Below, piece by piece: positions 35,202 through 59,863 of a stretch of DNA of 64,000 nt. Below the pieces are notes generated by a model. That model made no database searches, was not told the DNA's origin, and saw nothing but the letters and a program-made list of their open reading frames with translations. Source of the DNA: a virus; the IMG/VR virus record IMGVR_UViG_3300045988_141197. The stretch is one strand, 5' to 3'. Position 1 is the first letter of the stretch, and each line of letters starts with the position of its first letter. Position numbers and translations under genes: made by a program.

Positions 35202-35233
35202 AAAGAGATATTTTAATATATCTCTTTATTTTT
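35202..35233 (+). terminator. rho-independent terminator
   Basis: Hairpin aaagagatattttaatatatctcttt followed by a T-run. Confidence 0.65.
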
Positions 35234-35979: not shown

Positions 35980-36096
35980 TTAATTTAAGGTATTAAGTAT
36001 AAAATAATATAAACTTAATATATGTAATGGTAAGTCGAGATTCTACCTCCTCGATACTGCCATTACATCTTAATAAAAATAGTATGGAGGTAATAT

Positions 36097-36849: not shown

Positions 36850-36885
36850 TTTAAAATTTTAAAGAAAGGGGTAAATTAAGGTATA

Positions 36886-38676: not shown

Positions 38677-38699
38677 TTAATGAAAGGAGATTAATTTAA

Positions 38700-40259: not shown

Positions 40260-40996
40260 TGGGTCAAATATTTGAAAATAATGATCTTCAACAACTACAA
40301 AATAGTAATGTTAATTACTTAGGAACAAGCTATATTTTAAATCATAAAGAAGATTTCGAACCAGGTAGATCTTCAGACTTCATATTAAAAATTAAGTTTA
40401 CTAGAGATTTATATGATATGGATGGTAACTTAGTTGCATATGCAGATGAAGCTACAGAAGCTTTAGCATTATCTTTAAGAGATTATACAGGACCTCAATT
40501 AGCAATTGAACCTATTTCTATTAAAACAGGTAATGGAACAGTTAATTATGCAGGAGTACCTTCAGTTGGTAACTCACCTATATCTTTTACAGATTATATA
40601 GGTATGAGAACAGAAAATATATTACTTGCTTGGTATTCAATGGCTCATAATATTCAAAATGATAAAATAGGATTTAAAGAATATTATGCACAAGATGGTT
40701 TATTATATAAATGGGCTCCTAATGGAACAAGACAAATATCTTGGAAATTATGGGGATGTTGGATTAATGAATATAATCAAGGTCAATTCTCAAGAAACAA
40801 TCCTGAATTAAGACAATTTAGTACAACAATTTATTATGATAAACCTACACCATTTGGAACACCAGAATATCCTAAATGGAATGTTAATTCATCAGATAAA
40901 ACAAGTGCTGCTTATACAAATTCTTCATCACAAGCATATATCGGAACATTAGGAAATTCTATGATAGATTCTACAAAAAATAGAGTTAATGCTTAA
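40259..40996 (+). CDS. tail tube protein
   Basis: Translationally coupled to the sheath gene (overlapping ATG); followed by a strong terminator. Confidence 0.6.
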   Translation: MGQIFENNDLQQLQNSNVNYLGTSYILNHKEDFEPGRSSDFILKIKFTRDLYDMDGNLVAYADEATEALALSLRDYTGPQLAIEPISIKTGNGTVNYAGVPSVGNSPISFTDYIGMRTENILLAWYSMAHNIQNDKIGFKEYYAQDGLLYKWAPNGTRQISWKLWGCWINEYNQGQFSRNNPELRQFSTTIYYDKPTPFGTPEYPKWNVNSSDKTSAAYTNSSSQAYIGTLGNSMIDSTKNRVNA

Positions 40997-41005
40997 TTAT
41001 ATAAC

Positions 41006-41039
41006 AAAGAGAGTCAATTTAGACTCTCTTTTTATTTTT
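41006..41039 (+). terminator. rho-independent terminator
   Basis: Hairpin aaagagagtcaatttagactctcttt followed by tttatttttg. Confidence 0.7.
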
Positions 41040-41040
41040 G

Positions 41041-41056
41041 GTAAAATATTAATAAG
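41041..41056 (+). promoter_or_regulatory. promoter-like motif GTAAAATATTAATAAG
   Basis: Conserved motif between the terminator and RBS ggaggtag. Confidence 0.45.
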
Positions 41057-41079
41057 AAGATATCTTGGAGGTAGAAATA

Positions 41080-45390: not shown

Positions 45391-45405
45391 GTTGTTATAA
45401 TATAT

Positions 45406-45420
45406 GTAAAATATTAATAG
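45406..45420 (+). promoter_or_regulatory. promoter-like motif GTAAAATATTAATAG
   Basis: Copy of the conserved motif. Confidence 0.4.
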
Positions 45421-45454
45421 AGATTAAAATATAATTTTGGAGGTAGAAAAGATT

Positions 45455-46252
45455 ATGAGTAATAAAAAAGATGAAAGTAAAGAAATATTACCAGATATTT
45501 CTAATATTAAAACTCAAGAAACATTTACATTACCAAGCAAGGGTTTGGTTTATGATGAAAGAGATAATATCCCTGCTAGTATTACTTTAAGAAGAATGAC
45601 CACAAAAGAGGATAAAATTCGTATGAGAAATTTATCTGAAGATAAAATAAGAAGAGATATTTTACAAGCTTGCATCTTAGAACCAGATGTTAAAGCTGAT
45701 AAATTAAAATTATCTGATGCTAATTTCTTATTATTTAAGTTAAGAGTATTGAGTCTATTAGATGATCTATACAAAGTGCAAATTGTATGTCCTAACTGTG
45801 CTACTACTTATATACATGAAGTTCATTTAAATGATGTTCCTGTAGATTATTTTACAAAAACTAAGTTAAATGAGATGTCTATGGTATTACCTTTATCAAA
45901 AGTAAAAATAGATTTTAAATATCCTTCATTAGGAGATATGATAAATATGGGAGAAAAATTAAGAACATATTTTGATAAATTCCCTAATGCAGATAGAGGA
46001 GAATCTATTTATACTACATCAGCAATGCTATATATTAAGCAAGTAAATGGAGAAAATCTTATATCAGAAGAATTAGAAGATTTTGTTGATAACATGGATA
46101 TAATTGATAATAAATATTTCAGAAAGCATTTAATGGCTTTAGATGATCTTTATGGATTATCATCTGATATAGCTTGTAGTTGTCCAAGCTGTGGTCATGA
46201 GACTAAACATGGTTTACCAATAACAGGTGAATTATTCAATCCCAGTTTATAA
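45455..46252 (+). CDS. zinc-ribbon protein at tail-assembly-chaperone position
   Basis: ATG at 45455 after RBS ggaggtag. C-terminal CPNC...CSCPSCGH. Lies between the tube and tape-measure genes. Confidence 0.4.
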   Translation: MSNKKDESKEILPDISNIKTQETFTLPSKGLVYDERDNIPASITLRRMTTKEDKIRMRNLSEDKIRRDILQACILEPDVKADKLKLSDANFLLFKLRVLSLLDDLYKVQIVCPNCATTYIHEVHLNDVPVDYFTKTKLNEMSMVLPLSKVKIDFKYPSLGDMINMGEKLRTYFDKFPNADRGESIYTTSAMLYIKQVNGENLISEELEDFVDNMDIIDNKYFRKHLMALDDLYGLSSDIACSCPSCGHETKHGLPITGELFNPSL

Positions 46253-46484
46253 AAAAGAGTTACAAAAAGCTGATATACAATTCATAAAAGAACATTTAAA
46301 TGACGTATTGGACCAGCAAGTTATAATAAGTCAGATGTCTAATGGTATAACTTATCAAGATACTGAAAATATGGATGAATATGAAAGAGTTTATATATTA
46401 AGTAAATTAATAGAAATGAAAAAAGAAGAAGTTGAAGCTAGACAAAAAGCTTATGATGAAATGAAAAATAAAAATGGATTATAA
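46227..46484 (+). CDS. overlapping +1-frame ORF (possible frameshift extension of 45455-46252)
   Basis: GTG-initiated ORF with no clear independent RBS. It overlaps the last 26 nt of the upstream gene in the +1 frame. Confidence 0.25.
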   Translation: MNYSIPVYKKELQKADIQFIKEHLNDVLDQQVIISQMSNGITYQDTENMDEYERVYILSKLIEMKKEEVEARQKAYDEMKNKNGL

Positions 46485-46520
46485 AAGATACTAGAGAATT
46501 AGTTCTCTAGTATCTTTGTT
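46485..46520. terminator. bidirectional rho-independent terminator
   Basis: Palindrome aagatactagagaa-tt-agttctctagtatctt between convergent genes. Confidence 0.6.
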
Positions 46521-47353
46521 TTAAAATATTCATTATATTCTTCTATAGTACCTCTATCTTGAGAAACTTCTAATTTAGGTAATTCAATACCAAATCTTTT
46601 AAATAATAATTCTACATCTTTATTATAGTGATTCTTACGAAATTCTTCAAAATCTTGTTTTACTGTTTTCATATCATTAGGTTTATTTAAGTAATCTTGT
46701 AATTCATTAATATTTGTTGTATAGTTTTTAATTTTATCTTCAATTTCAGCTTTTATATTATCTTTTGAGTTTTTAAATTCATCTTCTACTTTTTTAATCT
46801 GTGCTTCTATAGCAGTTATGGTTTCTTCATTATCTTTTATTTTTGCTTTATTTAAAGATCTAGAAATTATAGACTTTGATAATTTAGTATTTTCACTTTT
46901 TATTCGCTCTACTTTTCTTTTAAGTTTTTTTGTATTAGGTTCTAAGTTTTCTAAATTTTCTTTTAATTCATCAATTACTTTTTGACCTTCTTTAATACTT
47001 TCTAATATTATTTGTCTTTTAATTTCTTCTTTATCAATATTATATATAGATAAGAATTCTTTGAAATCGATATAAGATATTCCTAAATCTTCACATAATC
47101 TTCTTCTATAATCTTCTTGGTCTTGTTTAACTTGGTCTTGTAATTCTTCTTTTTGGCTTAAAGAATTTTCATATGCTTGCTCTTTCATAAGATTTAATTT
47201 TTCTTGTTCTATCTGGTTTGCTTTTTCTTGAGCATCTAGTAAATCCCAAATATTTTGAGCTTGAATTCTTTCATTTAATGTAGTTCCTTCCCAGCCATAA
47301 TCAAATTCTCCAAATAGACCACCTGGTCTTTGATTTCTTGGCATATAAATCAT
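46499..47353 (-). CDS. coiled-coil protein, the only minus-strand gene (moron candidate)
   Basis: 284 aa ORF with RBS aaggagatg on the minus strand; predicted coiled coil over most of its length. Confidence 0.5.
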   Translation of the reverse strand: MIYMPRNQRPGGLFGEFDYGWEGTTLNERIQAQNIWDLLDAQEKANQIEQEKLNLMKEQAYENSLSQKEELQDQVKQDQEDYRRRLCEDLGISYIDFKEFLSIYNIDKEEIKRQIILESIKEGQKVIDELKENLENLEPNTKKLKRKVERIKSENTKLSKSIISRSLNKAKIKDNEETITAIEAQIKKVEDEFKNSKDNIKAEIEDKIKNYTTNINELQDYLNKPNDMKTVKQDFEEFRKNHYNKDVELLFKRFGIELPKLEVSQDRGTIEEYNEYFKTKILEN

Positions 47354-47444
47354 CTCCTTTACAGAATACTCTTCTTATATATATTATAACATATTTTTTA
47401 AAAAATGGAACGGGATTTATAAAAAATAACTATATTGTTTATTT

Positions 47445-47459
47445 GTAAAATATTATTAG
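47445..47459 (+). promoter_or_regulatory. promoter-like motif GTAAAATATTATTAG
   Basis: Copy of the conserved motif upstream of the tape-measure gene. Confidence 0.4.
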
Positions 47460-47485
47460 AAATAAAAGATTTAAGGAGATATAAT

Positions 47486-50400
47486 ATGGCTAAAAAACGT
47501 AACGTAGATGCTTATGGTAAATCATGGAGTCCTTTTGATATACCTAATTTAGAAAGAGCAATTGAATTATATAAACGTTTAAATGAATTAAATGATCATT
47601 TTGCTGATTCTTTAAGTGGTTCTAATAAAATATGGGCACAAATAAATGAAAGAGCAGAACTACAAGAAGCCTTGAGTAAAACAGGTATTAAAATTACTCA
47701 ACAACAAAGTGAAGAGGTTTTAAAATTACTAAAAAATCAGCAAGCTTTAAATAAAGAGACTTCTAAAACAGTAAGTAGTCTAGATACAGTTAGACAACGT
47801 GCAGGAATTGGCTCAGGTCCAACTACTTTAAATAGTGGTAACTTTGGTAATGCTATTATGGGAGCTATACAGCAAAATTATGCTCAACGTCAACTTAATA
47901 ATAATTATAACTATTTTTCTAAAAATTCTACAAGTAAAAATCCTGAATTAATATCTAGATTAGCACAAAATAAGACAGTTAATGATTTAAATAAATCAGC
48001 TAATAAGTTTAGTTTAGCTGCTGATGTTTTACAAGTTGGTGCTAATACTTTCAAGGAAGCTGTATCTACTTTTTCTAGGTTATTCTTTGGTGGAATGAAT
48101 AATCAAGCTAATAGTTATAATAATAACTTTACAAATATATCTGTAAGAACAGGTTTATCTAAGTCTCAATATTTTTCAGGACAATCAGCTATCAATTCTA
48201 CTCTAAGCTCTAGAGGATTATACAATAATGTAAGTAATTCTGAAGTTACAGAGATGTGGAATAAATTAGCTAGTAATGGTCTAAATTCAGAAGATATGAT
48301 GGCTAATGCATTAGATACTGTTATTACAAATAAAATTGTTCCTTTTCTTGATACTTCTACTGCCTATTTCCAACAACTAACTGATCAACAACCTAGTTTA
48401 ATGAAGCAAATAAGAGGTATTGGATTAGCTACTCAAGAAATAAATGGGAGTTCTGTATTTGCTAATAAGTATTTACAAGATATGATAGATAGCCTATCAC
48501 CTATGGCGAGTTTAGCTGAAAATCAATTAGGTGTTCAATATGCTCAAATGACAGGTGCTTATGAAAGTCTTAGAGCTCAAGGATTATCAGATGCTACAAT
48601 AGGAGAAATGTATAAAGGATCTGCTGCATTATATAATGATCCATTAGCTGCATTAAAAAGTAATAACCTAGATTTAAAACTAGCAGCTGCACAAGGAATA
48701 GTTAATGGTATAGATTTTAGAGATGCTTCACAAGTTAATGCTCAATATATGAGATCTGCTAACTATGTTGCAAATCTAACACCTGAAGGATATATGTCAC
48801 CTTTATATGCTGGTATAACCAATACATATATGAGTACTGTTGGAAAGACAGAGTTAAATGAACGTAATGTTAGTATAGAAGAAGCTCTTAGAAAAGGTAC
48901 ATTAGTAGCCAATAGTTTAGATGAATATGCTAATATAGCAACAAATAGATTATCTTCAGATTATAACCAAACAGCTAAAACCTTACAAGAAGTTCAACTT
49001 GAAAATATGTCAACATGGTTAGCTAAAATTTATGAACAAATAGGATACTGGGGTAATGTCTTAGGTGTATTGGTTAAAGGTATAGCTGGAGTAATAGGAG
49101 CCAGAGTTGGATCTAAATTATTAGGAAGCATAATAAAAGGAAAATCTGGTGGTGCTAGTTTAGGAGGCACTATAGCTGGTAATATTGCAAGTAATGGAGG
49201 ATTAGGTGCAACTACTGGATTAGGGGCTGCTGGAACAGCTGTAGCAGGTATTGCTGGTATTGCTGGAGGAATTTATGGTATCTCTGAGGGTATAAGTGAT
49301 ATTAATAGAGGTAGTACAGTAAGAGGTGTTGGTAGTACTGTTGCTGGAGGAGCTGCTGTTGCTGGAGGAGCTATGCTTGCTGGAGGAGTAGCAGCTAGTG
49401 CTTTAGGTATAGGTGTTGCTAATGCTTGGAATCCTGTTGGATGGGTCTTAATGGCAGCAGGTCTAATAGGAGTAGCTGGAACAGCTGTTGCTAGAGTTAT
49501 GGATACTACTGTAGACTTATCACAAGAACTAGAAGCTGAAAAGAAAAACGCTGTTAATCAAATTAAAGCTAAAAATGATGAAACTTTAGATACAATGTAT
49601 GAAGTAAGAGAAGCTATGAAACAATCTACTTCATATGAAGAAGCTAAACAAATAGCACTACAATCAGGAATTGTTAGCCAAGAGGAATTAAATAAAGCTA
49701 CAGATAAAAGTGTTGATAGTTTATTAAAATTAGCAGATGTTAGCATTGAAAAACAAAAAGATATGAATATGATATCAGAACAAACTGTTGCTGCTTATGA
49801 AGATATCAAAAATGGTATAAAAGAAAAAGCTGGTAATGATATTCTTGACCTTGTTAATACTGGTAAGATGGGTGGAAGAAGCTATGATGATTTAAGTGAT
49901 GATGAGAAGAAAAAGTTAAATTCATTTATGCAAGAATATATTAAAGCTAATAAAAACTCAGATAATAAAGATATAAAATGGCGTATTGAACAGTGGGGCG
50001 GAGCTTTTGATGATGATATTCTATCTAAAGATGATTTTAATAAAATATTTAATGGTAATAATGGAACTACTTCAGATTTGTTTGAAGCTTGGGTAGCAAG
50101 TGATAGTGGAGCTAAAGCATTATCTTCAAATAAAAATCTTGAAGGATATTATGGTGGTTATTATGGTACAATGAATTCTGATACTGTAAGTAATTATATT
50201 TTATCAGCTTTGAATGCTAGTAGTGCTGGCAAAGCTAAATCATATTTAAAAGTATTAAAAGATTATGGATTGGTTTGGGATAAACTACCTGAAAGTGCTA
50301 GAACTGAGTTGGTAAATAAGTTTAGTGATGATATTAAATCATATAGAACAGGTTTAAATTCAGTACCTTATGATAATTATTTAGCTAACTTACATGAAGG

Positions 50401-50647
50401 TGAAGCGGTATTAACAGCCTCAACTGCTAATGAATTAAGAGGATTATTGACTGAATATCGAGAAAGTCAAAATCAAGGTGCTATAATTGAAGTAGCTATT
50501 TCAAATCAAACAACTATTTTAGTAGAGAAAATGAGTGAAATTATACAAACAATTCAAAGTGTAAATACATCTTCTACAAATACATCTAATTGGAGTAGTG
50601 CTGTAAGAACAAGTATGAGAAACATGATAAGTACAAAAAGTTTTTAA
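47486..50647 (+). CDS. tail tape measure protein
   Basis: ~1050 aa. Central Gly/Ala-rich hydrophobic segment GGASLGGTIAGN...AGIAGIAGGIYG with helical flanks. Preferred start ATG 47486 after RBS aaggag. Confidence 0.65.
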   Translation: MAKKRNVDAYGKSWSPFDIPNLERAIELYKRLNELNDHFADSLSGSNKIWAQINERAELQEALSKTGIKITQQQSEEVLKLLKNQQALNKETSKTVSSLDTVRQRAGIGSGPTTLNSGNFGNAIMGAIQQNYAQRQLNNNYNYFSKNSTSKNPELISRLAQNKTVNDLNKSANKFSLAADVLQVGANTFKEAVSTFSRLFFGGMNNQANSYNNNFTNISVRTGLSKSQYFSGQSAINSTLSSRGLYNNVSNSEVTEMWNKLASNGLNSEDMMANALDTVITNKIVPFLDTSTAYFQQLTDQQPSLMKQIRGIGLATQEINGSSVFANKYLQDMIDSLSPMASLAENQLGVQYAQMTGAYESLRAQGLSDATIGEMYKGSAALYNDPLAALKSNNLDLKLAAAQGIVNGIDFRDASQVNAQYMRSANYVANLTPEGYMSPLYAGITNTYMSTVGKTELNERNVSIEEALRKGTLVANSLDEYANIATNRLSSDYNQTAKTLQEVQLENMSTWLAKIYEQIGYWGNVLGVLVKGIAGVIGARVGSKLLGSIIKGKSGGASLGGTIAGNIASNGGLGATTGLGAAGTAVAGIAGIAGGIYGISEGISDINRGSTVRGVGSTVAGGAAVAGGAMLAGGVAASALGIGVANAWNPVGWVLMAAGLIGVAGTAVARVMDTTVDLSQELEAEKKNAVNQIKAKNDETLDTMYEVREAMKQSTSYEEAKQIALQSGIVSQEELNKATDKSVDSLLKLADVSIEKQKDMNMISEQTVAAYEDIKNGIKEKAGNDILDLVNTGKMGGRSYDDLSDDEKKKLNSFMQEYIKANKNSDNKDIKWRIEQWGGAFDDDILSKDDFNKIFNGNNGTTSDLFEAWVASDSGAKALSSNKNLEGYYGGYYGTMNSDTVSNYILSALNASSAGKAKSYLKVLKDYGLVWDKLPESARTELVNKFSDDIKSYRTGLNSVPYDNYLANLHEGEAVLTASTANELRGLLTEYRESQNQGAIIEVAISNQTTILVEKMSEIIQTIQSVNTSSTNTSNWSSAVRTSMRNMISTKSF

Positions 50648-50675
50648 AGAGTTGAATTAATTCAACTCTTTTTAT
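50647..50675 (+). terminator. rho-independent terminator
   Basis: Hairpin aagagttgaattaattcaactctt followed by ttt. Confidence 0.65.
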
Positions 50676-50827: not shown

Positions 50828-52720
50828 ATGAATATTAAATTTGGTGATGATAATTTTTATGTTAAATATTTAAAAAGATTTTTAAATAATGAGATGTCTC
50901 AAACAAATACAATTCTAGGTAAATTCGATAAAAATGATCTAGAATTATTAATTAAATATTTAAATCTTCCAAATGTTGAAGATATGTTCTCTGTTTATAA
51001 AAAAATTGTTATTGAATTTCCAGAATTAAATAAGTTATTTAATTATAAGTATAAGGATAATATGATTCAATGGACAGCTAAAGAAATTAGTTCTGAGGTA
51101 TCTGAATTTATTATAAATAATTTAGATAAGATCAAAGAATTCTGCGCCTCTGTAGGTTGGGAAGTGTCTGACCTTAATGAATGGATTGATTTAAGTAAAG
51201 ATATTAATCAAGATGGTAAAGTAGATGAATTAGATCGACAAATTCTAAATAATATAGTATTTAATCAAGCTGTTTATGATGAGAATATTACAAAAAGAGC
51301 AGATTTGAATCTTGATGGTTTAATTAATGAATTAGATATTAATGAATTAGATAATTATATTATATCTAATAAATTATATTTAGAAATAAAAATGTCTAAT
51401 AGAAAGAACTATTTTCCAAATAAAGATATGCTTGTATTTATTAATCAATTTACTGGATCATTTATGTATAATTATGCTATAAGAGATAGTATAGGTATTG
51501 ATGATGTTCCTCATGTTAGTAATGGTACAAATTTAAAGATAGCTTTATATCAATGTAAACCTGGTCAAAAAATAACAATTGCTCATAATAATGATAAAAA
51601 AGTTCATTTAGTTATAGGATCATCACCTGCAAAACTTAAACAAGATATAACTGGTTTTATGTTACAGAATGTAGTAGAAGTGGATCTAAAAGCAGGAGAA
51701 GGATTTCAATATACTTGTTCAAGTACTGCTGATAATACAGGATATAATGCTAATTGGGTATGTATTCAATGTCCATCTAATTATGGAAATTTAGAAGGAG
51801 AAAGAACAGTATCTACTGAAATTGAAGTAGGAGATATTAATGGAGATGGACAAATTAATCTTCAGGATTATCATTTATTAGCTGCTTATACATCTACAGG
51901 TCCAGGTTCTGAAAAACTACACTGGGAAGCAACAGCTCGACAAAAAGTAGCTATGGATTGTAATAAGGATGGTGTAATTGACAATAAAGATACTCTCATG
52001 TTTGAGGATTATCTAAATGGTAAGATAATGAGTTTAGGTTTGGCTCCCTTTACTTATGTAATTCCTGATGATTATGGAGATAGTGAAAATGTAAGTAACT
52101 TATTAATAATAGATGGTCATTATGATAGGTCTATAAATATTCCTTTTATGGATTTTCTAGCAGATGATTGGGTTATTCATGAAAAATTCTTTAATTATTT
52201 ATTAAATATAGCTATTCATAAATATAGTGACTCTACTAATATAACATATTTACAAAAATTATTAAAGGAAGCTTATCCTGGGCATATGTATGATGAATCA
52301 TTTTTCTATCCTGGGTATTACAGTGATAATATGCAAGCATTAGTAAGAGAATTTCAAATAAGTCAAATTAATTATACAAAAGGAGATTTAAACAGAGATA
52401 ATAAATTAACAGATGTGGATCTACTATTATTAAGAAACTATTTAGATGATCCCCAACATAAATTATATGAAGAAGATCCTAAAAATAATAAAGATAGTAC
52501 TTTATTGTCCGAGATTCAAAAAGTAAGAGCTGATGTTAATGATGATGGATATATCAATGAATTAGATTATGAATTTCTACGAAAAGAAGTAAATAAAGAA
52601 ACTCAAAATTTAAAAAATTATGATATAACGTTTAATTTAGGTTGGTATGATGTACAAACTGAAGCTTTATTTGAGGAGCAATATAATTTTGCAGGTACTA
52701 TATCGGAGGTGAGTAAATAA
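50828..52720 (+). CDS. baseplate / distal-tail protein with three dockerin-like modules
   Basis: Six EF-hand-like segments arranged as three pairs: DINQDGKVDELD / DLNLDGLINELD; DINGDGQINLQDYHLL / DCNKDGVIDNKDTLMF; DLNRDNKLTDVDLLLL / DVNDDGYINELDYEFL. This is the dockerin type I repeat pattern. Confidence 0.6.
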   Translation: MNIKFGDDNFYVKYLKRFLNNEMSQTNTILGKFDKNDLELLIKYLNLPNVEDMFSVYKKIVIEFPELNKLFNYKYKDNMIQWTAKEISSEVSEFIINNLDKIKEFCASVGWEVSDLNEWIDLSKDINQDGKVDELDRQILNNIVFNQAVYDENITKRADLNLDGLINELDINELDNYIISNKLYLEIKMSNRKNYFPNKDMLVFINQFTGSFMYNYAIRDSIGIDDVPHVSNGTNLKIALYQCKPGQKITIAHNNDKKVHLVIGSSPAKLKQDITGFMLQNVVEVDLKAGEGFQYTCSSTADNTGYNANWVCIQCPSNYGNLEGERTVSTEIEVGDINGDGQINLQDYHLLAAYTSTGPGSEKLHWEATARQKVAMDCNKDGVIDNKDTLMFEDYLNGKIMSLGLAPFTYVIPDDYGDSENVSNLLIIDGHYDRSINIPFMDFLADDWVIHEKFFNYLLNIAIHKYSDSTNITYLQKLLKEAYPGHMYDESFFYPGYYSDNMQALVREFQISQINYTKGDLNRDNKLTDVDLLLLRNYLDDPQHKLYEEDPKNNKDSTLLSEIQKVRADVNDDGYINELDYEFLRKEVNKETQNLKNYDITFNLGWYDVQTEALFEEQYNFAGTISEVSK

Positions 52721-53574
52721 TGGCATATACTAGAAATTTAAACAACAGAAATTTAAATTTTGCGGGAAAATATAATTCTTATCAAAATTCCTACTCTGCA
52801 GGTACAAATGGTTTAACTGGATTTCAAGCATGGGAGTGTTATATGCTATTAAAATATGGTCATGCAGATTCATATGGTTTAGCTGGAGATTCAGAATATT
52901 TAATTGAATTACCTCTTTATCCTGAAGAAGTAACTGAAAGTATTTCAACTACTTGGTCTAAACAAAATATATTAGGAAGATCTTCAGCTTTAGCAGCTTA
53001 TGCTAATACTGAACTTAAAAATGTTAATTTCAGTTTAGATTTACACAGAGACTTTTTAACAGGAAGTTTCAGTCATACCGCTAAGACTCTAAGTGATATA
53101 GGAGGAAATCTGGCAAATCAAGCTGCTGGTTACCAGAAGCAATCTGATAAAGGTCCCTTTGATACAAGAACTTGGTATATTAATATAAATAAAATGCTTC
53201 AGATGAGTTGTTATCCTCAATATACAACAGCTGGACTTATGCCTCCTACAACATATTTTATATTTGGACAAATGATATTAAAAGGATTTGTAGAGAGTTA
53301 TAGTACGACTTGGAAAAAACCAATAATAAACACTTTTTATGGGTGGAATAGTGTTACTATTCAAATGAGTTGTTATCCTGATTCTATAATTTCAGCTAGT
53401 GATATGATTAGTGGTACAGGGGCAACTAGTACACAAAATACTTATAATACTCTTTATCCTGCTAATAAAGCTTTAAATAGTAATGTAATGACCAGAAATT
53501 TTGGTAGATCTAATGCTAGAACATATTCAGCTATAAATGGAGGAACTCCTGGAGGACAAGTAATTGATACTTAA
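52720..53574 (+). CDS. baseplate component (hypothetical)
   Basis: ORF coupled to the upstream gene; rich in S, T, G, N. Confidence 0.4.
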   Translation: MAYTRNLNNRNLNFAGKYNSYQNSYSAGTNGLTGFQAWECYMLLKYGHADSYGLAGDSEYLIELPLYPEEVTESISTTWSKQNILGRSSALAAYANTELKNVNFSLDLHRDFLTGSFSHTAKTLSDIGGNLANQAAGYQKQSDKGPFDTRTWYININKMLQMSCYPQYTTAGLMPPTTYFIFGQMILKGFVESYSTTWKKPIINTFYGWNSVTIQMSCYPDSIISASDMISGTGATSTQNTYNTLYPANKALNSNVMTRNFGRSNARTYSAINGGTPGGQVIDT

Positions 53575-53598: not shown

Positions 53599-54015
53599 AT
53601 GACAAGTGAATTAGATATTATAAGAAGATATAATGTATCTCCGCAATATCTTGAAGAAATGAGAGAAGAATTTACAATGCGATCATATTTAAAACCTCGT
53701 CAATATGTAAACAATAGTCGTTATACTAAAATACGTAGACTACAAGATGAGGAAACTGGAAAAATATATAATGAAAATTGGATAGCTCAAACAATTGATG
53801 AATCTAGTGAAGATCAATTTTATGTTGTTACAATGAGTGAAGAAGATCGTTTAGATATTATATCTACTTCATTTTATGGAACTCCTAAATATTGGTGGGT
53901 TATTGCATTAGCTAACAATATTATTGATCCTTTTACTTTAGAGATAGGTACTAATTTAAGAATACCTCCTATTATTTCACTTTATAATAAAGGTGGTGTA
54001 TTAAGCAGTGACTAG
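53599..54015 (+). CDS. LysM-like baseplate protein (gpX/gp53-like)
   Basis: C-terminal DRLDIISTSFYGTPKYWWVIALANNIIDPFTLEIGTNLRIPP fits the LysM fold consensus. Confidence 0.6.
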   Translation: MTSELDIIRRYNVSPQYLEEMREEFTMRSYLKPRQYVNNSRYTKIRRLQDEETGKIYNENWIAQTIDESSEDQFYVVTMSEEDRLDIISTSFYGTPKYWWVIALANNIIDPFTLEIGTNLRIPPIISLYNKGGVLSSD

Positions 54016-55576
54016 AGATTATGTTGATATAAAACCTATAACAGATTCTACATCTATGGCTACTAGATTTGATAAAATGTTAAATAATGTAGCTGATATG
54101 TTAGCTAAGGCTCCTATATATACTACATGGATAAGATTTCAAATAGGCAAAAAGCAACCTTTAACATTTAATACAGCTTCAACCAATAAAAAACAAAATT
54201 TAATCGCTGATCTAGAGGTGGAAAAACAAGGTGTTGGAGTTTGTAATGATTTTACTATAAATGTATACTATGATCCTTTTGATTATGGGCAAAATCCTTC
54301 TGACCAAATTGAATTATTAGATGATTTAATAGCATATGCAATGTCATTTGATATTTCTGATGATGCAAGTGAAAATAACTTAGATAGTTTAAGAGGATAT
54401 ATACAATATGGATATAATTATTCAGATGATACAACCCTTGTATCACCTAAATATCAATTTATGTTAACTGGAGCGGAAACAAGAGTAACTGCTAAAAATG
54501 GTATAACTAGATATACTTTTACAGGAACATCTGATTTAGCTATAGATTGCGATTTTAATGTTACCTTTCCAGAGTTTAGTAATGTTAGTTTGCTTGATGT
54601 CATTACTACCGTATTATATTGTTATTATGGTGATTCAGAAAATCCACCTAGTTCTTCTCATCTATTAGATAATATTACATATGTAGAAAATGATTTTAAA
54701 TATAAAATAGATATAAGTGATAGCTTATATGCAGATTCTCCTACAATAGAATCAATAGAAGCATCAGCAGCAATATCTCCTTGGAGTTATTGTAAAAATC
54801 TTTTAACTGGTAAAATTTCTAAATCTGATGGAGAGAGTGAAGATTATAAAAATTTAGATACTTTAAAAGAAAATGAAAAACCTCAATATATACTATATAT
54901 GACAGATGAAGCAGGAGCTAAATGTATCCACTTAAATTATATTTCACCTAAAAAGGAAGGAAATACCAAATTAGATTTTGAATTTACATGGAGTATACAA
55001 GCTAAAAACTTAGTTGAGGACTGGAACCCTCAGGTAGATTTACAATTATATCTTATTAGAAAAGCTCAAGCAATAAGAAAAGCTAGACTTGCTGCTATAA
55101 ATCCTGATACTGGAACAACTATTTATGATAGTTTACAAAATATTGATTCAAGTGCTATTTATAATATAGCTACTAATGCTAAAAATGGAACTTTTGAATT
55201 AGGAGATAATCCTGTAGCTAATTTTTTGGAACTTTTACTAAATAATTCAACAACAGTTAAAGTTGCAGGAGCAGCCGGTACTTCTATAATGGATTCATTA
55301 AAGGGAATAGATTTAGCTGCTATACAAGCTTATATAAAAGCAGCTACCCCAAATACACAAATAAAGGATGAAATGTATGATGCAGAATTAACACTAGTAG
55401 GTATTCCTGCAGATATACCTTTAGGTTGTGAAATAAAAATTAAGCCTAGAATAAATCAAGCTATAAGTAGAACCGCAGGTATTTATATGGTAAGGGGATG
55501 TACTGATAGAATTGATACTAATGGAAAATTTAGTTCCACTTTAAAACTGTTAAGATTAAAAAGTTTGGATGAATAA
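54008..55576 (+). CDS. baseplate hub-like protein (hypothetical)
   Basis: 522 aa ORF between the LysM and spike genes. Confidence 0.4.
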   Translation: MTRDYVDIKPITDSTSMATRFDKMLNNVADMLAKAPIYTTWIRFQIGKKQPLTFNTASTNKKQNLIADLEVEKQGVGVCNDFTINVYYDPFDYGQNPSDQIELLDDLIAYAMSFDISDDASENNLDSLRGYIQYGYNYSDDTTLVSPKYQFMLTGAETRVTAKNGITRYTFTGTSDLAIDCDFNVTFPEFSNVSLLDVITTVLYCYYGDSENPPSSSHLLDNITYVENDFKYKIDISDSLYADSPTIESIEASAAISPWSYCKNLLTGKISKSDGESEDYKNLDTLKENEKPQYILYMTDEAGAKCIHLNYISPKKEGNTKLDFEFTWSIQAKNLVEDWNPQVDLQLYLIRKAQAIRKARLAAINPDTGTTIYDSLQNIDSSAIYNIATNAKNGTFELGDNPVANFLELLLNNSTTVKVAGAAGTSIMDSLKGIDLAAIQAYIKAATPNTQIKDEMYDAELTLVGIPADIPLGCEIKIKPRINQAISRTAGIYMVRGCTDRIDTNGKFSSTLKLLRLKSLDE

Positions 55577-55588: not shown

Positions 55589-57217
55589 ATGGAAGTTAGT
55601 AATAGAAATGTATATTATAACTGTATATATCAAGCTGTTGTAGTTAATGCTGATACTTCACAAGATCCTAATAGTTCAAATAGAATTCAAATTTATGTAC
55701 CTGCTTTACATTATAATTTTGAAGGAGTTTATAAACAATATATTCAAGATACAAATAAAGCTAATAGTATTTATAAGAGTTATTTTCCATGGGCTACAAC
55801 AGCTGTAGATGAATTAACTAACGGTGATATTGTTTTTTGTAATTTTCTTAATAATGACCCTAATAGTTTTATAATTATAGGAAAAGATATTGCTGCAAGT
55901 AAGAGTATTAATGGAGAAGGAGGATATTCAAATACTCCTATGGATACTGCAGATTTATTAAATCTAACAATGCCTATTATTATATCTAATGAGGTTGGTA
56001 TAAAACCCTCACAGTGGCCTGATAGTATTTCAGATTCCCAATATACTAATATAAATCCTTATGATAATGGAGGTTGGTCTATAGGTTTAATACAATGGCA
56101 TCATTGTAGAGCTTTTGATGTTTTGCATTATATAGCATCTAGAGATCCTTCATGGAAAACTAAATTTACTGACACTAGTATTGATTTATATTCTGATCTA
56201 GAAAAAAGCTTAGCATCTAATAGTACTTCACCTTATAGAAATAAATATCAAGGTAGTTATCATCCAACATCAGGAACAGCTGCAAATCGTAGTATAAAAA
56301 ACATGCTAGGATCTGAAATAGGTAAAGTAGCTCAAAGAGAATATGCATCTCGAGATACAAATGATTTAATAACTCATTTACAAAATGATTATTCAATTAA
56401 AAATCCTGCAGTAATTATATTTTTAACAGATATACTAAACCAGTATGGAAAATATAAGACTACCGCTAAAAATAAAGCTAAAGAAATATGTTCATCCTCA
56501 GATGATATGATGACTCAATTAACTAAATTTAGATTATGGTGGGATGGAGCTACTGGTGGTGCAGGAACATGTACACAAGGTAGCAAAAGAGGAGCTTACT
56601 CATCAAGAAGAGATAAAACTTATTCATATATAGTAGGACTTGAAAGTCAAGGAAAACTATATAGTGCAGGTAATGTAGACTTAGGAGATATTGCAAGTTC
56701 TAAATACATTCCTGAAATAGGTGAATATTATTGGCCTTTATTAAAATCTACTCAAATCAATTGTTATTGGGGAGAAAAATCAATGCGAATTCCTTATACT
56801 TTTAAGTATAATACATATCAGAAAAATATGGGATATTCTAGTATGAATAGATTTCACTATGGAACTGATTTTGGTCCAGCTAAAGCTGGTGTTGATGGTG
56901 ATCCTGTTATAGCTGTAGGAAGTGGTACTGTGCAATATGTTTCAGGTAATACTGGAGGACAAGGTAATTGTATTGGTATTCAAATGAATAAAAATAAAAA
57001 TCATTATTTTGTTTATATGCATTTATGTAAAAAACCTCAATTTAAAGTTGGAGATAAAGTAACAGCAGGACAAATAATAGGCTATATGGGAACTACAGGA
57101 AACTCTACTGGAACTCATTTACATTTAGGTTTGCACATTGGTTCTGTATGGCCTACATCTAGTAAAACAACAAGAATTGACCCACTACCTTATTTAGGTA
57201 AAAAAGCTAATGCATAA
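55589..57217 (+). CDS. baseplate central spike / tail lysin with C-terminal M23 peptidase domain
   Basis: N-terminal gp5/gpV-like segment. C-terminal HYGTDFG ... HLHLGLH (HxxxD and HxH motifs of LytM/M23). Confidence 0.7.
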   Translation: MEVSNRNVYYNCIYQAVVVNADTSQDPNSSNRIQIYVPALHYNFEGVYKQYIQDTNKANSIYKSYFPWATTAVDELTNGDIVFCNFLNNDPNSFIIIGKDIAASKSINGEGGYSNTPMDTADLLNLTMPIIISNEVGIKPSQWPDSISDSQYTNINPYDNGGWSIGLIQWHHCRAFDVLHYIASRDPSWKTKFTDTSIDLYSDLEKSLASNSTSPYRNKYQGSYHPTSGTAANRSIKNMLGSEIGKVAQREYASRDTNDLITHLQNDYSIKNPAVIIFLTDILNQYGKYKTTAKNKAKEICSSSDDMMTQLTKFRLWWDGATGGAGTCTQGSKRGAYSSRRDKTYSYIVGLESQGKLYSAGNVDLGDIASSKYIPEIGEYYWPLLKSTQINCYWGEKSMRIPYTFKYNTYQKNMGYSSMNRFHYGTDFGPAKAGVDGDPVIAVGSGTVQYVSGNTGGQGNCIGIQMNKNKNHYFVYMHLCKKPQFKVGDKVTAGQIIGYMGTTGNSTGTHLHLGLHIGSVWPTSSKTTRIDPLPYLGKKANA

Positions 57218-57229: not shown

Positions 57230-57619
57230 ATGAATCAAAATACATTTAGTTTTCCTCAGATTATAAATAGAAGTAGTCACAAAATTGAATTGTCTAGTAA
57301 TACTAAATCTATTAATGAGTGCTTAGGAATTTTATTAAGAACCAGACCAGGAGAATTATTAGGAGATCCTGAATATGGTTGTAATTTAATAGAAAGAATA
57401 TTTATGTATAATGGAGTTTTAATACAAAAACTTATAAAGGAAGATATCATAGAAGCTGTTAATAAATATGAACCTAGAATATTCATGAATGAAAATGATA
57501 TATCAATAGTTCAAAATCAAACAACTGTAGAAATTTATATACAATATGAAATTTTACAAACAGGTGAAATAAATCAATATAATATGGAAATTACTGCTGA
57601 TGATAATCCATATAAATAA
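57230..57619 (+). CDS. baseplate wedge protein gp25/GPW-like
   Basis: INECLGILLRTRPGELLGDPEYGCNL matches the GPW/gp25 motif; size 129 aa. Confidence 0.7.
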   Translation: MNQNTFSFPQIINRSSHKIELSSNTKSINECLGILLRTRPGELLGDPEYGCNLIERIFMYNGVLIQKLIKEDIIEAVNKYEPRIFMNENDISIVQNQTTVEIYIQYEILQTGEINQYNMEITADDNPYK

Positions 57620-57676: not shown

Positions 57677-59863
57677 ATGGCAACAATAAATCAAGTTGAA
57701 AAAATAGATTATTCAGCTCAAAAAATAGATTATACTAGTAAAGACTATGTAGCTATATTAGATGATTTAATTAATTCTATACCCGGTATAACTCAAAAAT
57801 GGAATTCAACTGATCAAAATGATCCTGGTATGATTTTAGTTAAATTAATGTCTATAATTGGTGATATGTTATTCTTTAATCAAGATATGCAATCTTTAGA
57901 AGTATATCCTAATTCAGTTACATTAAGAAAAAATGCTGCTAGTATTTATAAACTAATTGGTTATAAAATGAGATGGTATAAATCAGCTACTCTAGAGGCT
58001 AATGTTATAAACACTTTCTCTAACTCTGCTACTTTACCTAGATTTTGTACATTCAAAACTGATACAGGAATAACTTACACAACATTTGATCAATATGAAT
58101 TACCTTCTAATATGACTAATAATGGTACTGAAACTTTAGTAGAATTAGTACAAGGTACACCTGTAACTCCTGTTCGTACATCTTCTAGTCCATATCCAGA
58201 AGCTGGTAGATCTTGGCATAGTATATACGGATATAATTATACTACTGATGATATCATTAATAATAGAATATATTTGAAAGATAATAATATAGATCAATCA
58301 CATATTATTTTAGTTGATGATCAAAATGAAGTTTGGGAATTAAGAGAAAATATTTATTTAACTACTGATGTTGGTAGATTTTTTGAATTTGGTGTAGATG
58401 TTAATGATGATGTTTATATTGAATTAGTTGATTATTACACAAATTTTAATATTAATAAATTTAAAATATTCTATATTAAAAGTGATGGTGAATCTGGTCA
58501 AATATATGCTAATACTTTAAAGGCTATAACTGGAAATGTATGGAGTCGTCAAGGCAGTGATCAAAATATTTATAATGTTAGTAGTTTTATTCATTTTACT
58601 CATTATGATAGTACTCTTGGTTATAATCCTGAAACTCCTGATGAAGCTAGAAAGAATAGTGTTAAATATCAAAATACTATGGATACTTTAATTACCCTTG
58701 CAGATTTTGAAAGAGCTGTTCTAAGAGAACCAGGAGTAGCTAATGTAAGAGCAACTGATTTAACAAATGATCCAGGAGAACCAATTGAATTTTCTGTTGG
58801 AAATATTAATATGGATTATACTCAAAGTATGGAAGATGGTGTAACTTTAAGAAGTGAAATAATTGATCAAGCTGACTATGATTTATTATCAAATTATTTA
58901 ACTGATAAATCTAAATATCCTTTAACTACATATCAACTTAAATTAGCTGATTGTAATCAAGATGGAGAAGTTAATGAAGATGATTTAAAATGCTTAGAGT
59001 ATTATATCAAAGGAGATCCGGCTGATATAGATAAAACTGGCTATATAGGAATTCAAAAAATTAAAGATATAGAAATGTTAAATGGATTTACTGTTAAATT
59101 ATATATTTTAAGAAATGATATAGGAGAACAGATGAATGAAGAAAGTTTTGAAAGTATGATTTTATCTGATCTAGAAGATTATAAAATCTTACCTTTATCT
59201 TTAAAAGTTGATATAAACTCAATAAATAAATACTATTGGACAATAACTGGATCTTTCTTTACTAAACAACCATTATCAAGAGATGAACTACAATCTATAA
59301 TTGTTAGAATAAATAATCAGTTAAGATTTCAATATTCTGTAGAGAAAGTTAATTTTAATACTTTAATTAATTATAAAGAAATCATAGAAACAATTTTATC
59401 AGTTGATTCAAGAATACTGATGGTTGATTTAGATCCAATAGTATATAAAGATTATGAAGGTAATGAAATTTCTAAAGCAGAATTAACAGGAAATTATACC
59501 TATACTGAACCTCAATTAAATAATAAAAATGATGAACAGAATTTACATTATCATTTTATTATTCCAGGTACACCGATTTTACCAGGATCTGTAATGTTAA
59601 AGATTAATAATGGTCAATATACATTGAGAGATAATAATAATGGGCATATTTATAATGTTGATAATATATTAACTAAAAAAGGTGATATAGATTATATTAC
59701 TGGAGAGGTGGATTTACAATTTAACGCTCCTTTAACGGATGATATAGTTATAAACTTTATTCATAATGCTACAAATATAGCTGTATATAAAAACTTAAAT
59801 ACACAAACATTTTATTTTGATCAATCATCTTTAGAAAAAGATGATATGCAAGATATGGTTTAA
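57677..59863 (+). CDS. baseplate J-like protein (gp6-like) with an inserted dockerin-like segment
   Basis: Position immediately after the gp25-like gene; size 728 aa. Internal LADCNQDGEVNEDDLKCLEYYIKG Ca-loop-like repeat. Confidence 0.5.
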   Translation: MATINQVEKIDYSAQKIDYTSKDYVAILDDLINSIPGITQKWNSTDQNDPGMILVKLMSIIGDMLFFNQDMQSLEVYPNSVTLRKNAASIYKLIGYKMRWYKSATLEANVINTFSNSATLPRFCTFKTDTGITYTTFDQYELPSNMTNNGTETLVELVQGTPVTPVRTSSSPYPEAGRSWHSIYGYNYTTDDIINNRIYLKDNNIDQSHIILVDDQNEVWELRENIYLTTDVGRFFEFGVDVNDDVYIELVDYYTNFNINKFKIFYIKSDGESGQIYANTLKAITGNVWSRQGSDQNIYNVSSFIHFTHYDSTLGYNPETPDEARKNSVKYQNTMDTLITLADFERAVLREPGVANVRATDLTNDPGEPIEFSVGNINMDYTQSMEDGVTLRSEIIDQADYDLLSNYLTDKSKYPLTTYQLKLADCNQDGEVNEDDLKCLEYYIKGDPADIDKTGYIGIQKIKDIEMLNGFTVKLYILRNDIGEQMNEESFESMILSDLEDYKILPLSLKVDINSINKYYWTITGSFFTKQPLSRDELQSIIVRINNQLRFQYSVEKVNFNTLINYKEIIETILSVDSRILMVDLDPIVYKDYEGNEISKAELTGNYTYTEPQLNNKNDEQNLHYHFIIPGTPILPGSVMLKINNGQYTLRDNNNGHIYNVDNILTKKGDIDYITGEVDLQFNAPLTDDIVINFIHNATNIAVYKNLNTQTFYFDQSSLEKDDMQDMV

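What the first reader, a model, noticed from the sequence alone, without database searches (positions are those of the whole stretch)
50828..52720. Baseplate/distal-tail protein carrying three dockerin-like modules
The 630-aa protein encoded directly after the tape-measure gene contains six ~22-residue segments. Each has a D-x-N-x-D-G-x-I/V-x-x-x-D calcium-loop followed by a hydrophobic helix (LL/FL). They are arranged as three pairs with short linkers, which is the architecture of type I dockerin domains from cellulosomal enzymes. A further single copy sits in the baseplate J-like protein (about 58945-59015). Dockerins bind cohesins on scaffoldins and on cell-wall-anchored proteins. A phage baseplate carrying three of them suggests adsorption to a host with cohesin-bearing surface structures, or decoration of the virion with host proteins. 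I am not aware of this being a described receptor-recognition strategy.
Basis: partly seen in the sequence, partly recalled or inferred. Interest (0 to 1): 0.8.

Follow-up and report, generated by a model that had tools for sequence, protein, structure and literature searches.

The report
Dockerin modules on a phage baseplate
Two tail-baseplate genes of an uncultured ~200-kb gut phage carry genuine calcium-binding "dockerin" modules, the plugs bacteria use to assemble cellulosomes; this has not been described in the literature I could search, but nothing yet shows that they bind a cohesin.

Summary

New findings. The 630-aa protein is not a Dit. It is an elaborated member of a conserved "post-tape-measure" family built from two PG_binding_1 bundles, an alpha/beta domain and a CBM-like beta-sandwich. 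Relatives in the same gene slot have no dockerins. In the window's 25-31% GC clade, dockerins were inserted cleanly at three domain junctions. The J protein of the same clade holds 1 to about 6 tandem dockerins.

Calcium ligands are nearly invariant. The canonical cohesin-contact positions are hypervariable, mostly polar, and show no two-fold symmetry. No cohesin was found in about 74 kb of phage DNA. The host is unknown.

Verdict: real dockerin-fold modules on a phage baseplate, a new context for a known module. Adsorption through cohesins remains an open hypothesis. Calcium-dependent adhesion or spacer modules on a peptidoglycan-binding baseplate accessory is the best-supported reading.

The parts
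47435..50647 (+). Putative tape-measure protein (1070 aa) immediately upstream
   Evidence: Weak PHROG 1533 hit, E = 4e-4. Same position as the annotated TMP in Bacillus phage HSE3: gp26-like, small ORF, TMP. Same position in loci L023 and L024.
50646..50671 (+). Terminator-like hairpin (11-bp stem plus T-run) between the TMP gene and the dockerin gene. It is followed by an AT-rich spacer and an AGGAG ribosome-binding site before the ATG at 50828.
   Evidence: This is a consensus match only; function was not shown.
50828..52720 (+). 630-aa 'post-tape-measure' protein: a peptidoglycan-binding scaffold carrying three inserted dockerin modules
   Evidence: ORF. Pfam Dockerin_1 at 90 bits. AF2 model with pLDDT 88.7 and pTM 0.72. 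More than 187 full-length homologs, many on contigs of about 200 kb.
50828..51022 (+). N-terminal PG_binding_1-like three-helix bundle (aa 1-65)
51023..51178 (+). Alpha/beta domain (aa 66-117)
51197..51361 (+). Dockerin module 1 (aa 124-178; F-hands at aa 125 and 159)
   Evidence: Pfam 36.0 bits, profile positions 2-56 of 57. phmmer alignment to the CelS dockerin 1DAQ/2MTE. It is a clean insertion relative to P0288, P0285 and P0280.
51377..51826 (+). Beta-sandwich core (aa 184-333), weakly CBM-like
51830..52018 (+). Dockerin module 2 (aa 335-397; F-hands at aa 336 and 377). Its first half is the most conserved dockerin segment of the family.
   Evidence: Pfam 38.6 bits. Entropy analysis. Absent from P0285 and P0280, with a single F-hand in P0288.
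52220..52372 (+). Second PG_binding_1-like domain, helices 1-2 (aa 465-515). Its third helix appears to be aa about 605-620, after dockerin 3.
   Evidence: Pfam PG_binding_1 at the homologous position in P0285 (28.7 bits), P0288 (37.1 bits, profile 2-57 of 57) and P0289 (29.7 bits), cut-off 23. Alignment A5 and sequence motifs ITYLQKLL...ALVREFQ...LGWYDVQTEAL. The split-domain reading is inferred.
52379..52594 (+). Dockerin module 3 (aa 518-589; F-hands at aa 520 and 569). Relatives have an extra F-hand here.
   Evidence: Pfam 43.1 bits, profile 1-57 of 57. Family alignment.
52718..52722 (+). TAATG stop/start overlap with the next baseplate gene. The GGAGG ribosome-binding site lies inside the conserved C-terminal SEVSK codons.
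   Evidence: Read directly from the sequence. Translational coupling is inferred.
52720..53574 (+). Tube-initiator-like protein (284 aa)
   Evidence: Weak CIS_tube hit. BLASTP E = 6e-11 to HSE3 gp077, the gene that directly follows the TMP gene in that phage.
53599..54015 (+). gp53/LysM-like baseplate wedge subunit (138 aa)
   Evidence: PHROG 7145, E = 1e-20.
54008..55576 (+). Putative baseplate hub (522 aa)
   Evidence: Position, plus a weak BLASTP match (E = 5e-4) to the HSE3 'baseplate protein' gp079.
55589..57217 (+). Spike or tail-lysin protein with a Peptidase_M23 domain and a weak tail-lysozyme domain
   Evidence: Pfam M23, E = 1.9e-19.
57230..57619 (+). gp25-like wedge or sheath-initiator protein
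   Evidence: Pfam GPW_gp25, E = 1.9e-14.
57677..59863 (+). gp6/Baseplate-J wedge protein (728 aa) with an inserted dockerin
58799..59011 (+). Dockerin insertion in the J-like protein (aa about 375-445). The first Ca loop is interrupted and the second is canonical (aa 425). This is the hypervariable site that holds 1 to about 6 tandem dockerins in relatives.

Best explanation
The 630-aa ORF is an accessory protein of the baseplate gene module of an uncultured T4-like myophage. The genome is about 200 kb at 25-31% GC, and the host is probably a low-GC Gram-positive gut bacterium. The core of the protein is two PG_binding_1 bundles, an alpha/beta domain and a CBM-like beta-sandwich. This core is a conserved 'post-tape-measure' peptidoglycan-binding protein that exists without dockerins in related phages. 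In the window's clade, genuine type-I-dockerin-fold modules, each with two Ca sites, were inserted at three domain junctions. One insertion lies inside the second PG_binding_1 domain. In the same clade, 1 to about 6 such modules were inserted between the wedge core and the distal domains of the gp6/J protein. Proposed mechanism: the protein is made in the Ca-poor cytoplasm and is built into or onto the baseplate. After lysis, extracellular Ca2+ folds and rigidifies the dockerin modules. They then act as Ca-dependent adhesion or spacer elements that position the PG-binding and CBM-like domains, and the distal J domains, on the host envelope. They may add low-specificity or fast-evolving protein contacts, and a canonical conserved cohesin partner is not required. 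Shown here: dockerin identity and predicted fold; conservation of the Ca ligands; modular insertion into a dockerin-less scaffold; conserved gene position; J-protein identity. Inferred: presence in the virion, Ca-dependent folding, the adhesion or spacer role, and the host type.
For: Dockerin identity. Ca-ligand positions have 0.15-1.0 bits of entropy against 2.1-2.7 bits at the canonical cohesin-contact positions, and the two halves of each module do not co-vary. Junctions between domains are 2-8 residues and pTM is 0.72, which indicates an integrated body rather than beads on linkers. PG_binding_1 and CBM-like folds. PG_binding_1 passes the Pfam cut-off in relatives. Dockerin-less orthologs P0285 and P0280 have the same scaffold. 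P0285, and P0288 with a single F-hand, sit in the same slot: gp26-like, TMP, this gene, tube-like, LysM-like, hub, M23 spike, gp25, J. Module number varies from 3 to 5 in this protein and from 1 to about 6 in J, as expected for avidity or spacer modules. In 20 related loci the motifs occur only in these two genes, and the outgroup J proteins have none. The TAATG overlap with the next baseplate gene suggests translational coupling. Ca-triggered baseplate activation and CBM decoration of adhesion devices are established for Gram-positive phages (PMC6115969, PMC6669499, PMC4742702).
Against: There is no direct evidence that the protein is in the virion: no cultured relative and no proteomics, and tblastn against 50,697 GenBank phage records found nothing. 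Variable surface residues fit a rapidly co-evolving specific partner equally well. The conserved face of dockerin 2a implies at least one fixed contact whose nature is unknown. Model coordinates and PAE were not available, so I could not see whether the cohesin-binding faces are exposed or buried. Dockerins are best known as specific cohesin ligands, so a partner-less role departs from the default expectation. Only about 74 kb of a genome of about 200 kb was checked for a cohesin.
Confidence: 0.45

Rival explanations
1. Host-cohesin receptor recognition. The exposed dockerins on the baseplate bind cohesin modules of cell-wall-anchored scaffoldins or other surface proteins of the host. This gives Ca-dependent, multivalent adsorption.
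Against: The host is unidentified. Positions 10/11 are mostly charged or polar rather than the small or hydrophobic pairs of characterised dockerins, and there is no a/b symmetry. The modules are internal and tightly packed. Dockerin-less orthologs show that the scaffold works without them. From my own knowledge, the well-known gut cellulosome producers (Ruminococcus) have much higher GC than these phages.
Confidence: 0.22
2. Intra-virion plug-and-socket. The dockerins bind cohesin-like, or otherwise complementary, domains on the phage's own fibres or receptor-binding proteins. Variable numbers of dockerins would then recruit variable sets of fibres to the baseplate.
For: The J-type wedge protein is where fibres attach in known baseplates (established knowledge of T4 gp6/gp7 and Mu gp47/gp48). 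Dockerin number and the downstream fibre genes both vary between relatives: the window has 207- and 219-aa fibre-like ORFs, while L001 has a 279-aa ORF and an 806-aa LamG protein. Dockerin 2a has a conserved face.
Confidence: 0.13
3. Not a virion component. The protein is a tail-assembly factor, or a protein released at lysis that binds the cell wall. It is encoded in the tail module only for co-expression.
For: It is an extra gene relative to HSE3. PG_binding_1 domains are typical of endolysins. It has its own upstream terminator-like hairpin and ribosome-binding site.
Against: No catalytic domain was found. The position between TMP and tube-initiator genes is strictly conserved across distant relatives with 30-40% identity. 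The start of the next baseplate gene overlaps its stop. The same module type was acquired by the J wedge protein, which is certainly structural.
Confidence: 0.1
4. The segments are only generic EF-hand or D/N-rich Ca loops, or chance motifs, and not dockerins.
For: Weak sub-threshold EF-hand hits overlap the same residues.
Confidence: 0.02

Closest known systems
Type I dockerin modules of cellulosomal enzymes (C. thermocellum Xyn10B, PDB 2CCL/1OHZ; CelS, 1DAQ/2MTE; GH9, 4FL4)
   Same: About 60-70 residues; a duplicated 22-residue F-hand with the D-x-[DN]-x-[DN]-G-x-[IVL]-x-x-x-D loop followed by a helix. Passes PF00404. The predicted fold superposes at rmsd 1.0-1.2 A with 25-34% identity.
   Different: Not at the terminus of a secreted enzyme on a flexible linker. 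Three internal modules with junctions of 2-8 residues, in a protein with no evident signal peptide that is made in the cytoplasm of an infected cell. The contact positions are polar, hypervariable and not two-fold symmetric. No cohesin partner is known.
Non-cellulosomal dockerins: C. perfringens NagH/NagJ toxin complex (PDB 2OZN); dockerin/S-layer proteins of ANME archaea (PMC9012536); the double dockerin of Clo1313_0689 (PDB 8X39)
   Different: Those are secreted cellular proteins. Here the carriers are phage tail-module proteins, and the arrays reach about 6 modules.
Adhesion-domain decoration of Gram-positive phage adhesion devices: 'evolved' Dit, Tal, BppA and NPS with inserted CBMs (PMC6669499, PMC4742702, PMC9863714)
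   Same: Accessory binding modules are inserted modularly into conserved tail-tip or baseplate proteins. Their number and type vary between close relatives, and they are thought to add avidity for the cell envelope. The 630-aa protein also contains a CBM-like beta-sandwich.
   Different: The inserted module here is a dockerin, a protein-binding Ca-dependent helical domain, not a beta-sandwich CBM. The carrier is not a Dit: no Dit match.
Ca2+-activated baseplate of lactococcal phage p2 (reviewed in PMC6115969)
   Same: Extracellular Ca2+ as a structural trigger or stabiliser of an infection-competent baseplate in a Gram-positive phage.
   Different: In p2 a single Ca site in Dit drives RBP rotation. 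Here the Ca sites belong to autonomous dockerin folds, and any switch behaviour is only inferred.
PG_binding_1 domains of phage cell-wall enzymes (phiKZ gp144, PDB 3BKH; Burkholderia phage AP3 endolysin, 5NM7)
   Different: No catalytic domain is attached. There are two copies, one apparently split by a dockerin insertion. The gene lies in the baseplate module, not the lysis cassette.
gp6 / Baseplate-J wedge proteins (T4 gp6, 3H2T; Mu gp47; Klebsiella phage KP1 gp6; diffocin TRI-2)
   Different: It carries a dockerin array inserted after the conserved N-terminal about 370 residues. HSE3 J is 483 aa and lacks it.

Membership tests
Type I dockerin (Pfam PF00404 Dockerin_1) | Match to the family profile above the curated gathering score | tested here: met
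   Whole protein 90 bits. Isolated modules 36.0, 38.6 and 43.1 bits. J insert 28.2 bits isolated and 22.2 bits in the whole protein. Cut-off 22.9.
Type I dockerin (Pfam PF00404 Dockerin_1) | Two tandem F-hand segments of about 22 residues, each a 12-residue Ca loop with D/N ligands at positions 1, 3, 5, 9 and 12 followed by a helix | tested here: met
   Six segments in three pairs. Ligand positions are nearly invariant in 55 homologs, at 0.15-1.0 bits. Helices are predicted after each loop.
Type I dockerin (Pfam PF00404 Dockerin_1) | Three-dimensional dockerin fold | tested here: met
Type I dockerin (Pfam PF00404 Dockerin_1) | Ca2+ binding and Ca-dependent folding | not testable with these tools
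   Needs ITC or CD with and without EDTA on recombinant modules.
Type I dockerin (Pfam PF00404 Dockerin_1) | Specific binding to a cohesin module | not testable with these tools
   No partner is known. No Pfam Cohesin in the 46 other window ORFs scanned or in the next 10 kb. No PDB-sequence cohesin hit for the neighbouring proteins. The rest of the genome and the host were not examined.
Type I dockerin (Pfam PF00404 Dockerin_1) | Conserved, internally symmetric recognition residues (positions 10, 11, 17, 18, 22), as in dual-binding cellulosomal dockerins | tested here: not met
   These positions have 2.1-2.7 bits of entropy. The a and b halves are no more alike than in shuffles: 13 observed against 13.5 expected for Doc1 positions 10/11. 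Residues are mostly E, D, K, N, Q, S or T. This is typical of many dockerins but not required of all of them.
Type I dockerin (Pfam PF00404 Dockerin_1) | Usual context: a terminal module of a secreted (signal-peptide) protein, joined by a linker | tested here: not met
   The N-terminus MNIKFGDDNFYVKYLKRF has no hydrophobic signal region and belongs to a folded PG_binding_1-like bundle. No dedicated signal-peptide predictor was run. The modules are internal with junctions of 2-8 residues. This concerns context and is not a defining domain feature.
Distal tail protein (Dit) | Dit fold or profile (N-terminal beta-sandwich ring domain plus galectin-like domain) | tested here: not met
PG_binding_1 (Pfam PF01471) | Profile match above the gathering score | tested here: inconclusive
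   The window copy has no hit at E <= 1 for aa 1-117. Family members P0285 (28.7 bits), P0288 (37.1), P0289 (29.7) and P0277 (23.5) exceed the cut-off of 23 at homologous positions.
PG_binding_1 (Pfam PF01471) | Three-helix-bundle fold of PG-binding domains | tested here: met
gp6 / Baseplate_J wedge protein (for ORF 57677-59863) | Homology or fold match to gp6/J proteins, and position after the gp25-like gene | tested here: met
EF-hand (PF13499, PF00036, PF13202) | Profile match above the gathering score | tested here: not met
   All EF-hand models score 11-22 bits against cut-offs of 25-30.

The most novel reading that the evidence does not exclude
A clade of jumbo gut phages has co-opted the cohesin-dockerin system. 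Arrays of dockerins on the baseplate, on the post-tape-measure protein and on the gp6/J wedge, plug specifically into cohesin modules. Those cohesins could be on the host surface, which would be a new protein-receptor recognition strategy. They could instead be on exchangeable phage fibres, which would be a modular plug-and-socket system for swapping receptor-binding proteins. The hypervariable contact residues would encode specificity.
Probability: 0.3. Interest if true: 0.85.

Novelty: new variant of a known kind. Interest (0 to 1): 0.58.

Why it matters
Dockerins are the textbook high-affinity, Ca-dependent connectors of cellulosomes and are widely used in synthetic biology. Finding them, in varying numbers, in two baseplate-module proteins of a widespread uncultured phage clade extends the module to virions. 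It also gives a concrete, testable hypothesis for how phages of Gram-positive gut anaerobes attach: through Ca-dependent, multivalent modules, possibly recognising cohesins. The work also defines a previously unnamed, conserved 'post-tape-measure' PG_binding_1 protein family of myophage baseplate modules. It shows a clear natural example of domain accretion, with clean insertions at three junctions, one of them inside another domain. If a partner exists, the many natural variants would be a ready-made library of orthogonal dockerin specificities.

Tried and rejected
1. Megablast and tblastn of the 630-aa gene against 50,697 GenBank phage records found no match. There is therefore no annotated precedent and no cultured relative.

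2. PHROGs gave no family for the protein.

3. Search for a phage-encoded cohesin. Pfam found none on 46 further window ORFs, none in the precomputed Pfam of the next 10 kb, and a PDB sequence search with the concatenated neighbours gave only spurious scFv hits. Walking further along the genome failed. An exact 41-mer and the next protein had no match in IMG/VR. The look-up of the first window ORF was not on record. About 125 kb of the genome therefore remains unchecked.

4. Host assignment. The genome-contig scan returned only two phage contigs mis-binned as 'Bacilli' and 'Clostridia' MAGs. A tblastn intended for the capsid hit a homing endonuclease ORF instead. The nearest cultured baseplate relatives are Bacillus and Streptococcus phages, which gives only 'probably Bacillota'.

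5. The test for dual-binding symmetry of the recognition residues was negative.

8. The generic EF-hand reading was rejected.

9. Literature searches on dockerin with phage, tail, baseplate, virion or RBP gave only engineering papers, a structural-template mention of a 'dockerin-CBM', a BLAST remark on Vibrio phage VvAW1 gene 40, and dockerin domains on a putative ANME virus contig. None describes baseplate dockerins.
Full report
**1. The observation**

ORF 50828..52720 (+) encodes 630 aa and starts 180 nt after a 1070-aa ORF. That upstream ORF is the likely tape-measure protein. It has a weak PHROG 1533 hit and the same position as the annotated TMP of Bacillus phage vB_BceM-HSE3.

A motif scan finds six Ca-loop/helix segments at aa 125, 159, 336, 377, 520 and 569. 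One more lies at aa 425 of ORF 57677..59863, and none occurs in the other 69 ORFs. Shuffling the protein gives 0.012 hits on average, and 0 of 20,000 shuffles reach 3.

Pfam Dockerin_1 scores 90 bits on the whole protein (E = 1.1e-25, cut-off 22.9). Each pair cut out on its own scores 36.0, 38.6 and 43.1 bits over essentially the whole 57-position profile. The J-protein insert scores 28.2 bits. Every generic EF-hand model stays below its threshold.

phmmer aligns module 1 directly to the C. thermocellum CelS dockerin (1DAQ/2MTE). A family profile hits only dockerins in the PDB, with E down to 2e-7.

**2. Structure**

I built an alignment of 55 homologs. AlphaFold2 on it gives a confident model, with mean pLDDT 88.7 and pTM 0.72.

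- The rest of the protein is not a Dit.
- No cohesin appears among the top hits.
- Junctions between consecutive domains are only 2-8 residues. With the high pTM, this indicates an integrated body rather than modules on flexible linkers. I could not inspect coordinates or PAE.

**3. Who carries it**

The window has 24-33% GC. It encodes T4-type head genes (Gp23, S77 prohead protease), an intein-containing terminase and eight tRNAs.

The 630-aa protein has more than 187 full-length homologs at 43-96% identity, all unannotated. Many lie on contigs of 190-213 kb. It has no match in 50,697 GenBank phage records. One near-identical 199-kb contig is named XIAO16-1...METAG, which I read as a pig-gut catalogue sample; that reading rests on the record name only. 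The only genome-collection hits are whole phage contigs binned as 'Bacilli' or 'Clostridia' MAGs.

Synteny is conserved: terminase, gp26-like, TMP, this gene, tube-like, gp53/LysM-like, hub, M23 spike, gp25, J.

**4. The second carrier is a real baseplate wedge protein**

The family alignment shows that the stretch after residue about 371 is a hypervariable insertion site. It holds one dockerin in some relatives and two, three or up to about six tandem dockerins in others, with protein lengths of 715-964 aa. In the window copy the first Ca loop is interrupted by about 12 residues. HSE3 J is 483 aa and lacks the insert.

**5. The key new result: dockerins were added to a pre-existing scaffold**

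An exhaustive HMMER search with the beta-sandwich core (aa 184-333) finds only 34 cluster representatives among 1.84 billion proteins.

- The more distant ones (30-40% identity) include P0280 (374 aa) and P0285 (402 aa). These have the same order of N-terminal PG_binding_1, alpha/beta domain, beta-sandwich, second PG_binding_1 and conserved C-terminus, but no dockerin.
- P0288 (529 aa) has a single F-hand at the module-2 position.
- PG_binding_1 passes Pfam's cut-off in these relatives, at 28.7-37.1 bits.
- P0285 and P0288 lie in exactly the same slot between the TMP and tube-initiator-like genes. Their phages have 35% GC, and their J proteins have no F-hand motif.
- Alignment A5 shows modules 1 and 2 of the window protein as clean insertions. 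Module 3 sits between helix 2 and the 'LGY(V/L)D..TE' helix 3 of the second PG_binding_1 domain.
- In 20 loci of the window's clade (GC 25-31%) the motifs occur only in these two genes.
- HSE3 has no equivalent gene at all. The ortholog of the window's next gene (E = 6e-11) follows its TMP gene directly.

The protein is therefore an accessory of the module. It is conserved in a wider phage group, and it was decorated with dockerins, together with J, in one clade.

**6. Do they bind cohesin?**

This could not be tested directly. The indirect evidence is mixed.

- Ca-ligand positions are nearly invariant (0.15-1.0 bits). The positions that contact cohesin in cellulosomal dockerins (10, 11, 14, 17, 18, 21, 22) are the most variable (2.1-2.7 bits). 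The exception is the first half of module 2, at 1.4 bits.
- The two halves of each module do not co-vary. For example, 13 identical cells are observed against 13.5 expected for module 1 positions 10/11. Those positions are mostly charged or polar. That argues against a conserved, dual-binding cohesin interface. It remains compatible with a fast-evolving one.
- No Pfam Cohesin occurs in the 46 other window ORFs scanned or in the next 10 kb. No cohesin is seen by PDB sequence search of the neighbours. About 125 kb of the genome was out of reach.
- The host is unknown.

**7. Expression context**

A terminator-like hairpin (50646-50671) follows the TMP gene. The dockerin gene has an AGGAG ribosome-binding site. 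Its TAA stop overlaps the ATG of the next baseplate gene (TAATG), and that gene's GGAGG site lies inside the conserved C-terminal codons. This suggests co-translation with baseplate components. The promoter scan was not above background.

**8. Interpretation**

- **Best reading (0.45).** This is a virion baseplate accessory whose conserved job is peptidoglycan and envelope binding. In this clade it acquired Ca-dependent dockerin-fold modules that fold outside the cell. They serve as adhesion or spacer elements, by analogy with CBM decoration of Gram-positive phage adhesion devices and with Ca-activated baseplates (PMC6669499, PMC4742702, PMC6115969).
- **Rivals.** Specific recognition of host cohesins (0.22). 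Plug-and-socket attachment of phage fibres (0.13). A non-virion role (0.10). Not dockerins at all (0.02).
- **Shown.** Module identity and predicted fold, ligand conservation, insertion history, gene position, and J identity.
- **Inferred.** Virion location, Ca switching, binding partners, and host type.

**9. Novelty**

Full-text searches combining dockerin with phage, tail, baseplate, virion, RBP or cohesin returned no description of dockerins in phage structural proteins. The nearest items are dockerin domains on a putative ANME virus contig (PMC13452462), a BLAST remark on Vibrio phage VvAW1 gene 40 (PMC3558961) and a template-based 'dockerin-CBM' mention (PMC5967307). Subscription literature was not searchable.

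I rate this a new variant of a known kind: a known module and a known decoration principle, in a new carrier and context. It is of moderate to high interest, because it yields a sharply testable hypothesis and a large natural series of variants.

Noticed in passing
window 2003-8593: Three adjacent genes look like a second adhesin or fibre cluster far from the baseplate module. They are a 1041-aa protein with an Mtd_N-like N-terminus (E = 3e-4, below cut-off), a 565-aa Kelch beta-propeller protein (E = 7e-23), and a 331-aa DUF285/BspA-like repeat protein (E = 1e-60).
   Followed up: partly
window 41065-45390: The terminase large-subunit ORF is 1441 aa. It contains an intein splicing domain and a LAGLIDADG homing-endonuclease domain, and the sequence suggests two inteins.
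   Followed up: no
window 19376-23245: The Gp23-type major capsid gene (20349-21485) is flanked by mobile endonucleases. A GIY-YIG/NUMOD3 ORF lies at 19376-20221. A 536-aa ORF at 21635-23245 resembles the Hef-like homing endonucleases of Campylobacter and other T4-like phages.
   Followed up: partly
window 27834-35184: A cluster of eight tRNA genes (Pro, Ser x2, Tyr, Trp, Met, Gln, Leu), interspersed with small ORFs.
   Followed up: no
window 28897-47353 (exact ORFs not localised): Pfam hits to Tad8 (type II Thoeris inhibitor, E = 2.8e-23), cREC_REC (E = 1.7e-24) and an SPFH/Band_7 protein among the ORFs of this stretch. Among the ORFs of 129-28548 there are ART-PolyVal/PARP-like hits, and an LPD11 polyvalent-protein domain was localised to 14676-16823. 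These suggest anti-defence cargo.
   Followed up: no
window 62791-63561: A 256-aa papain-like (Peptidase_C1, weak) protein follows two small membrane-like ORFs after the fibre genes. It may be part of the lysis cassette.
   Followed up: no
L019, L020, L021 (IMG/VR relatives), locus positions about 10001-12080: In these 41-43% identical relatives the dockerin gene is broken by a frameshift near codon 255 and reads on in another frame. This could be an assembly error, a pseudogene or programmed frameshifting.
   Followed up: partly
P0113, P0120, P0106; L005, L017, L018, L022 (884-886 aa homologs): Some homologs carry an insertion of about 200 residues after dockerin 1. It contains a further beta-rich domain that looks CarboxypepD_reg-like on reading the sequence, plus extra F-hands, giving up to 9 motif hits. 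P0277 also shows weak Ig_J and SdrD_B-like hits.
   Followed up: partly
window 46499-47353 (minus strand): This is the only sizeable minus-strand ORF in the structural region. It encodes a 284-aa highly charged coiled-coil protein between the gp26-like and tape-measure genes, and its position is conserved in relatives.
   Followed up: no
window 52700-52722: The invariant C-terminal peptide ISEVSK of the family coincides with the GGAGG ribosome-binding site and the TAATG overlap of the next gene. Part of its conservation may therefore be at the nucleotide level.
   Followed up: partly
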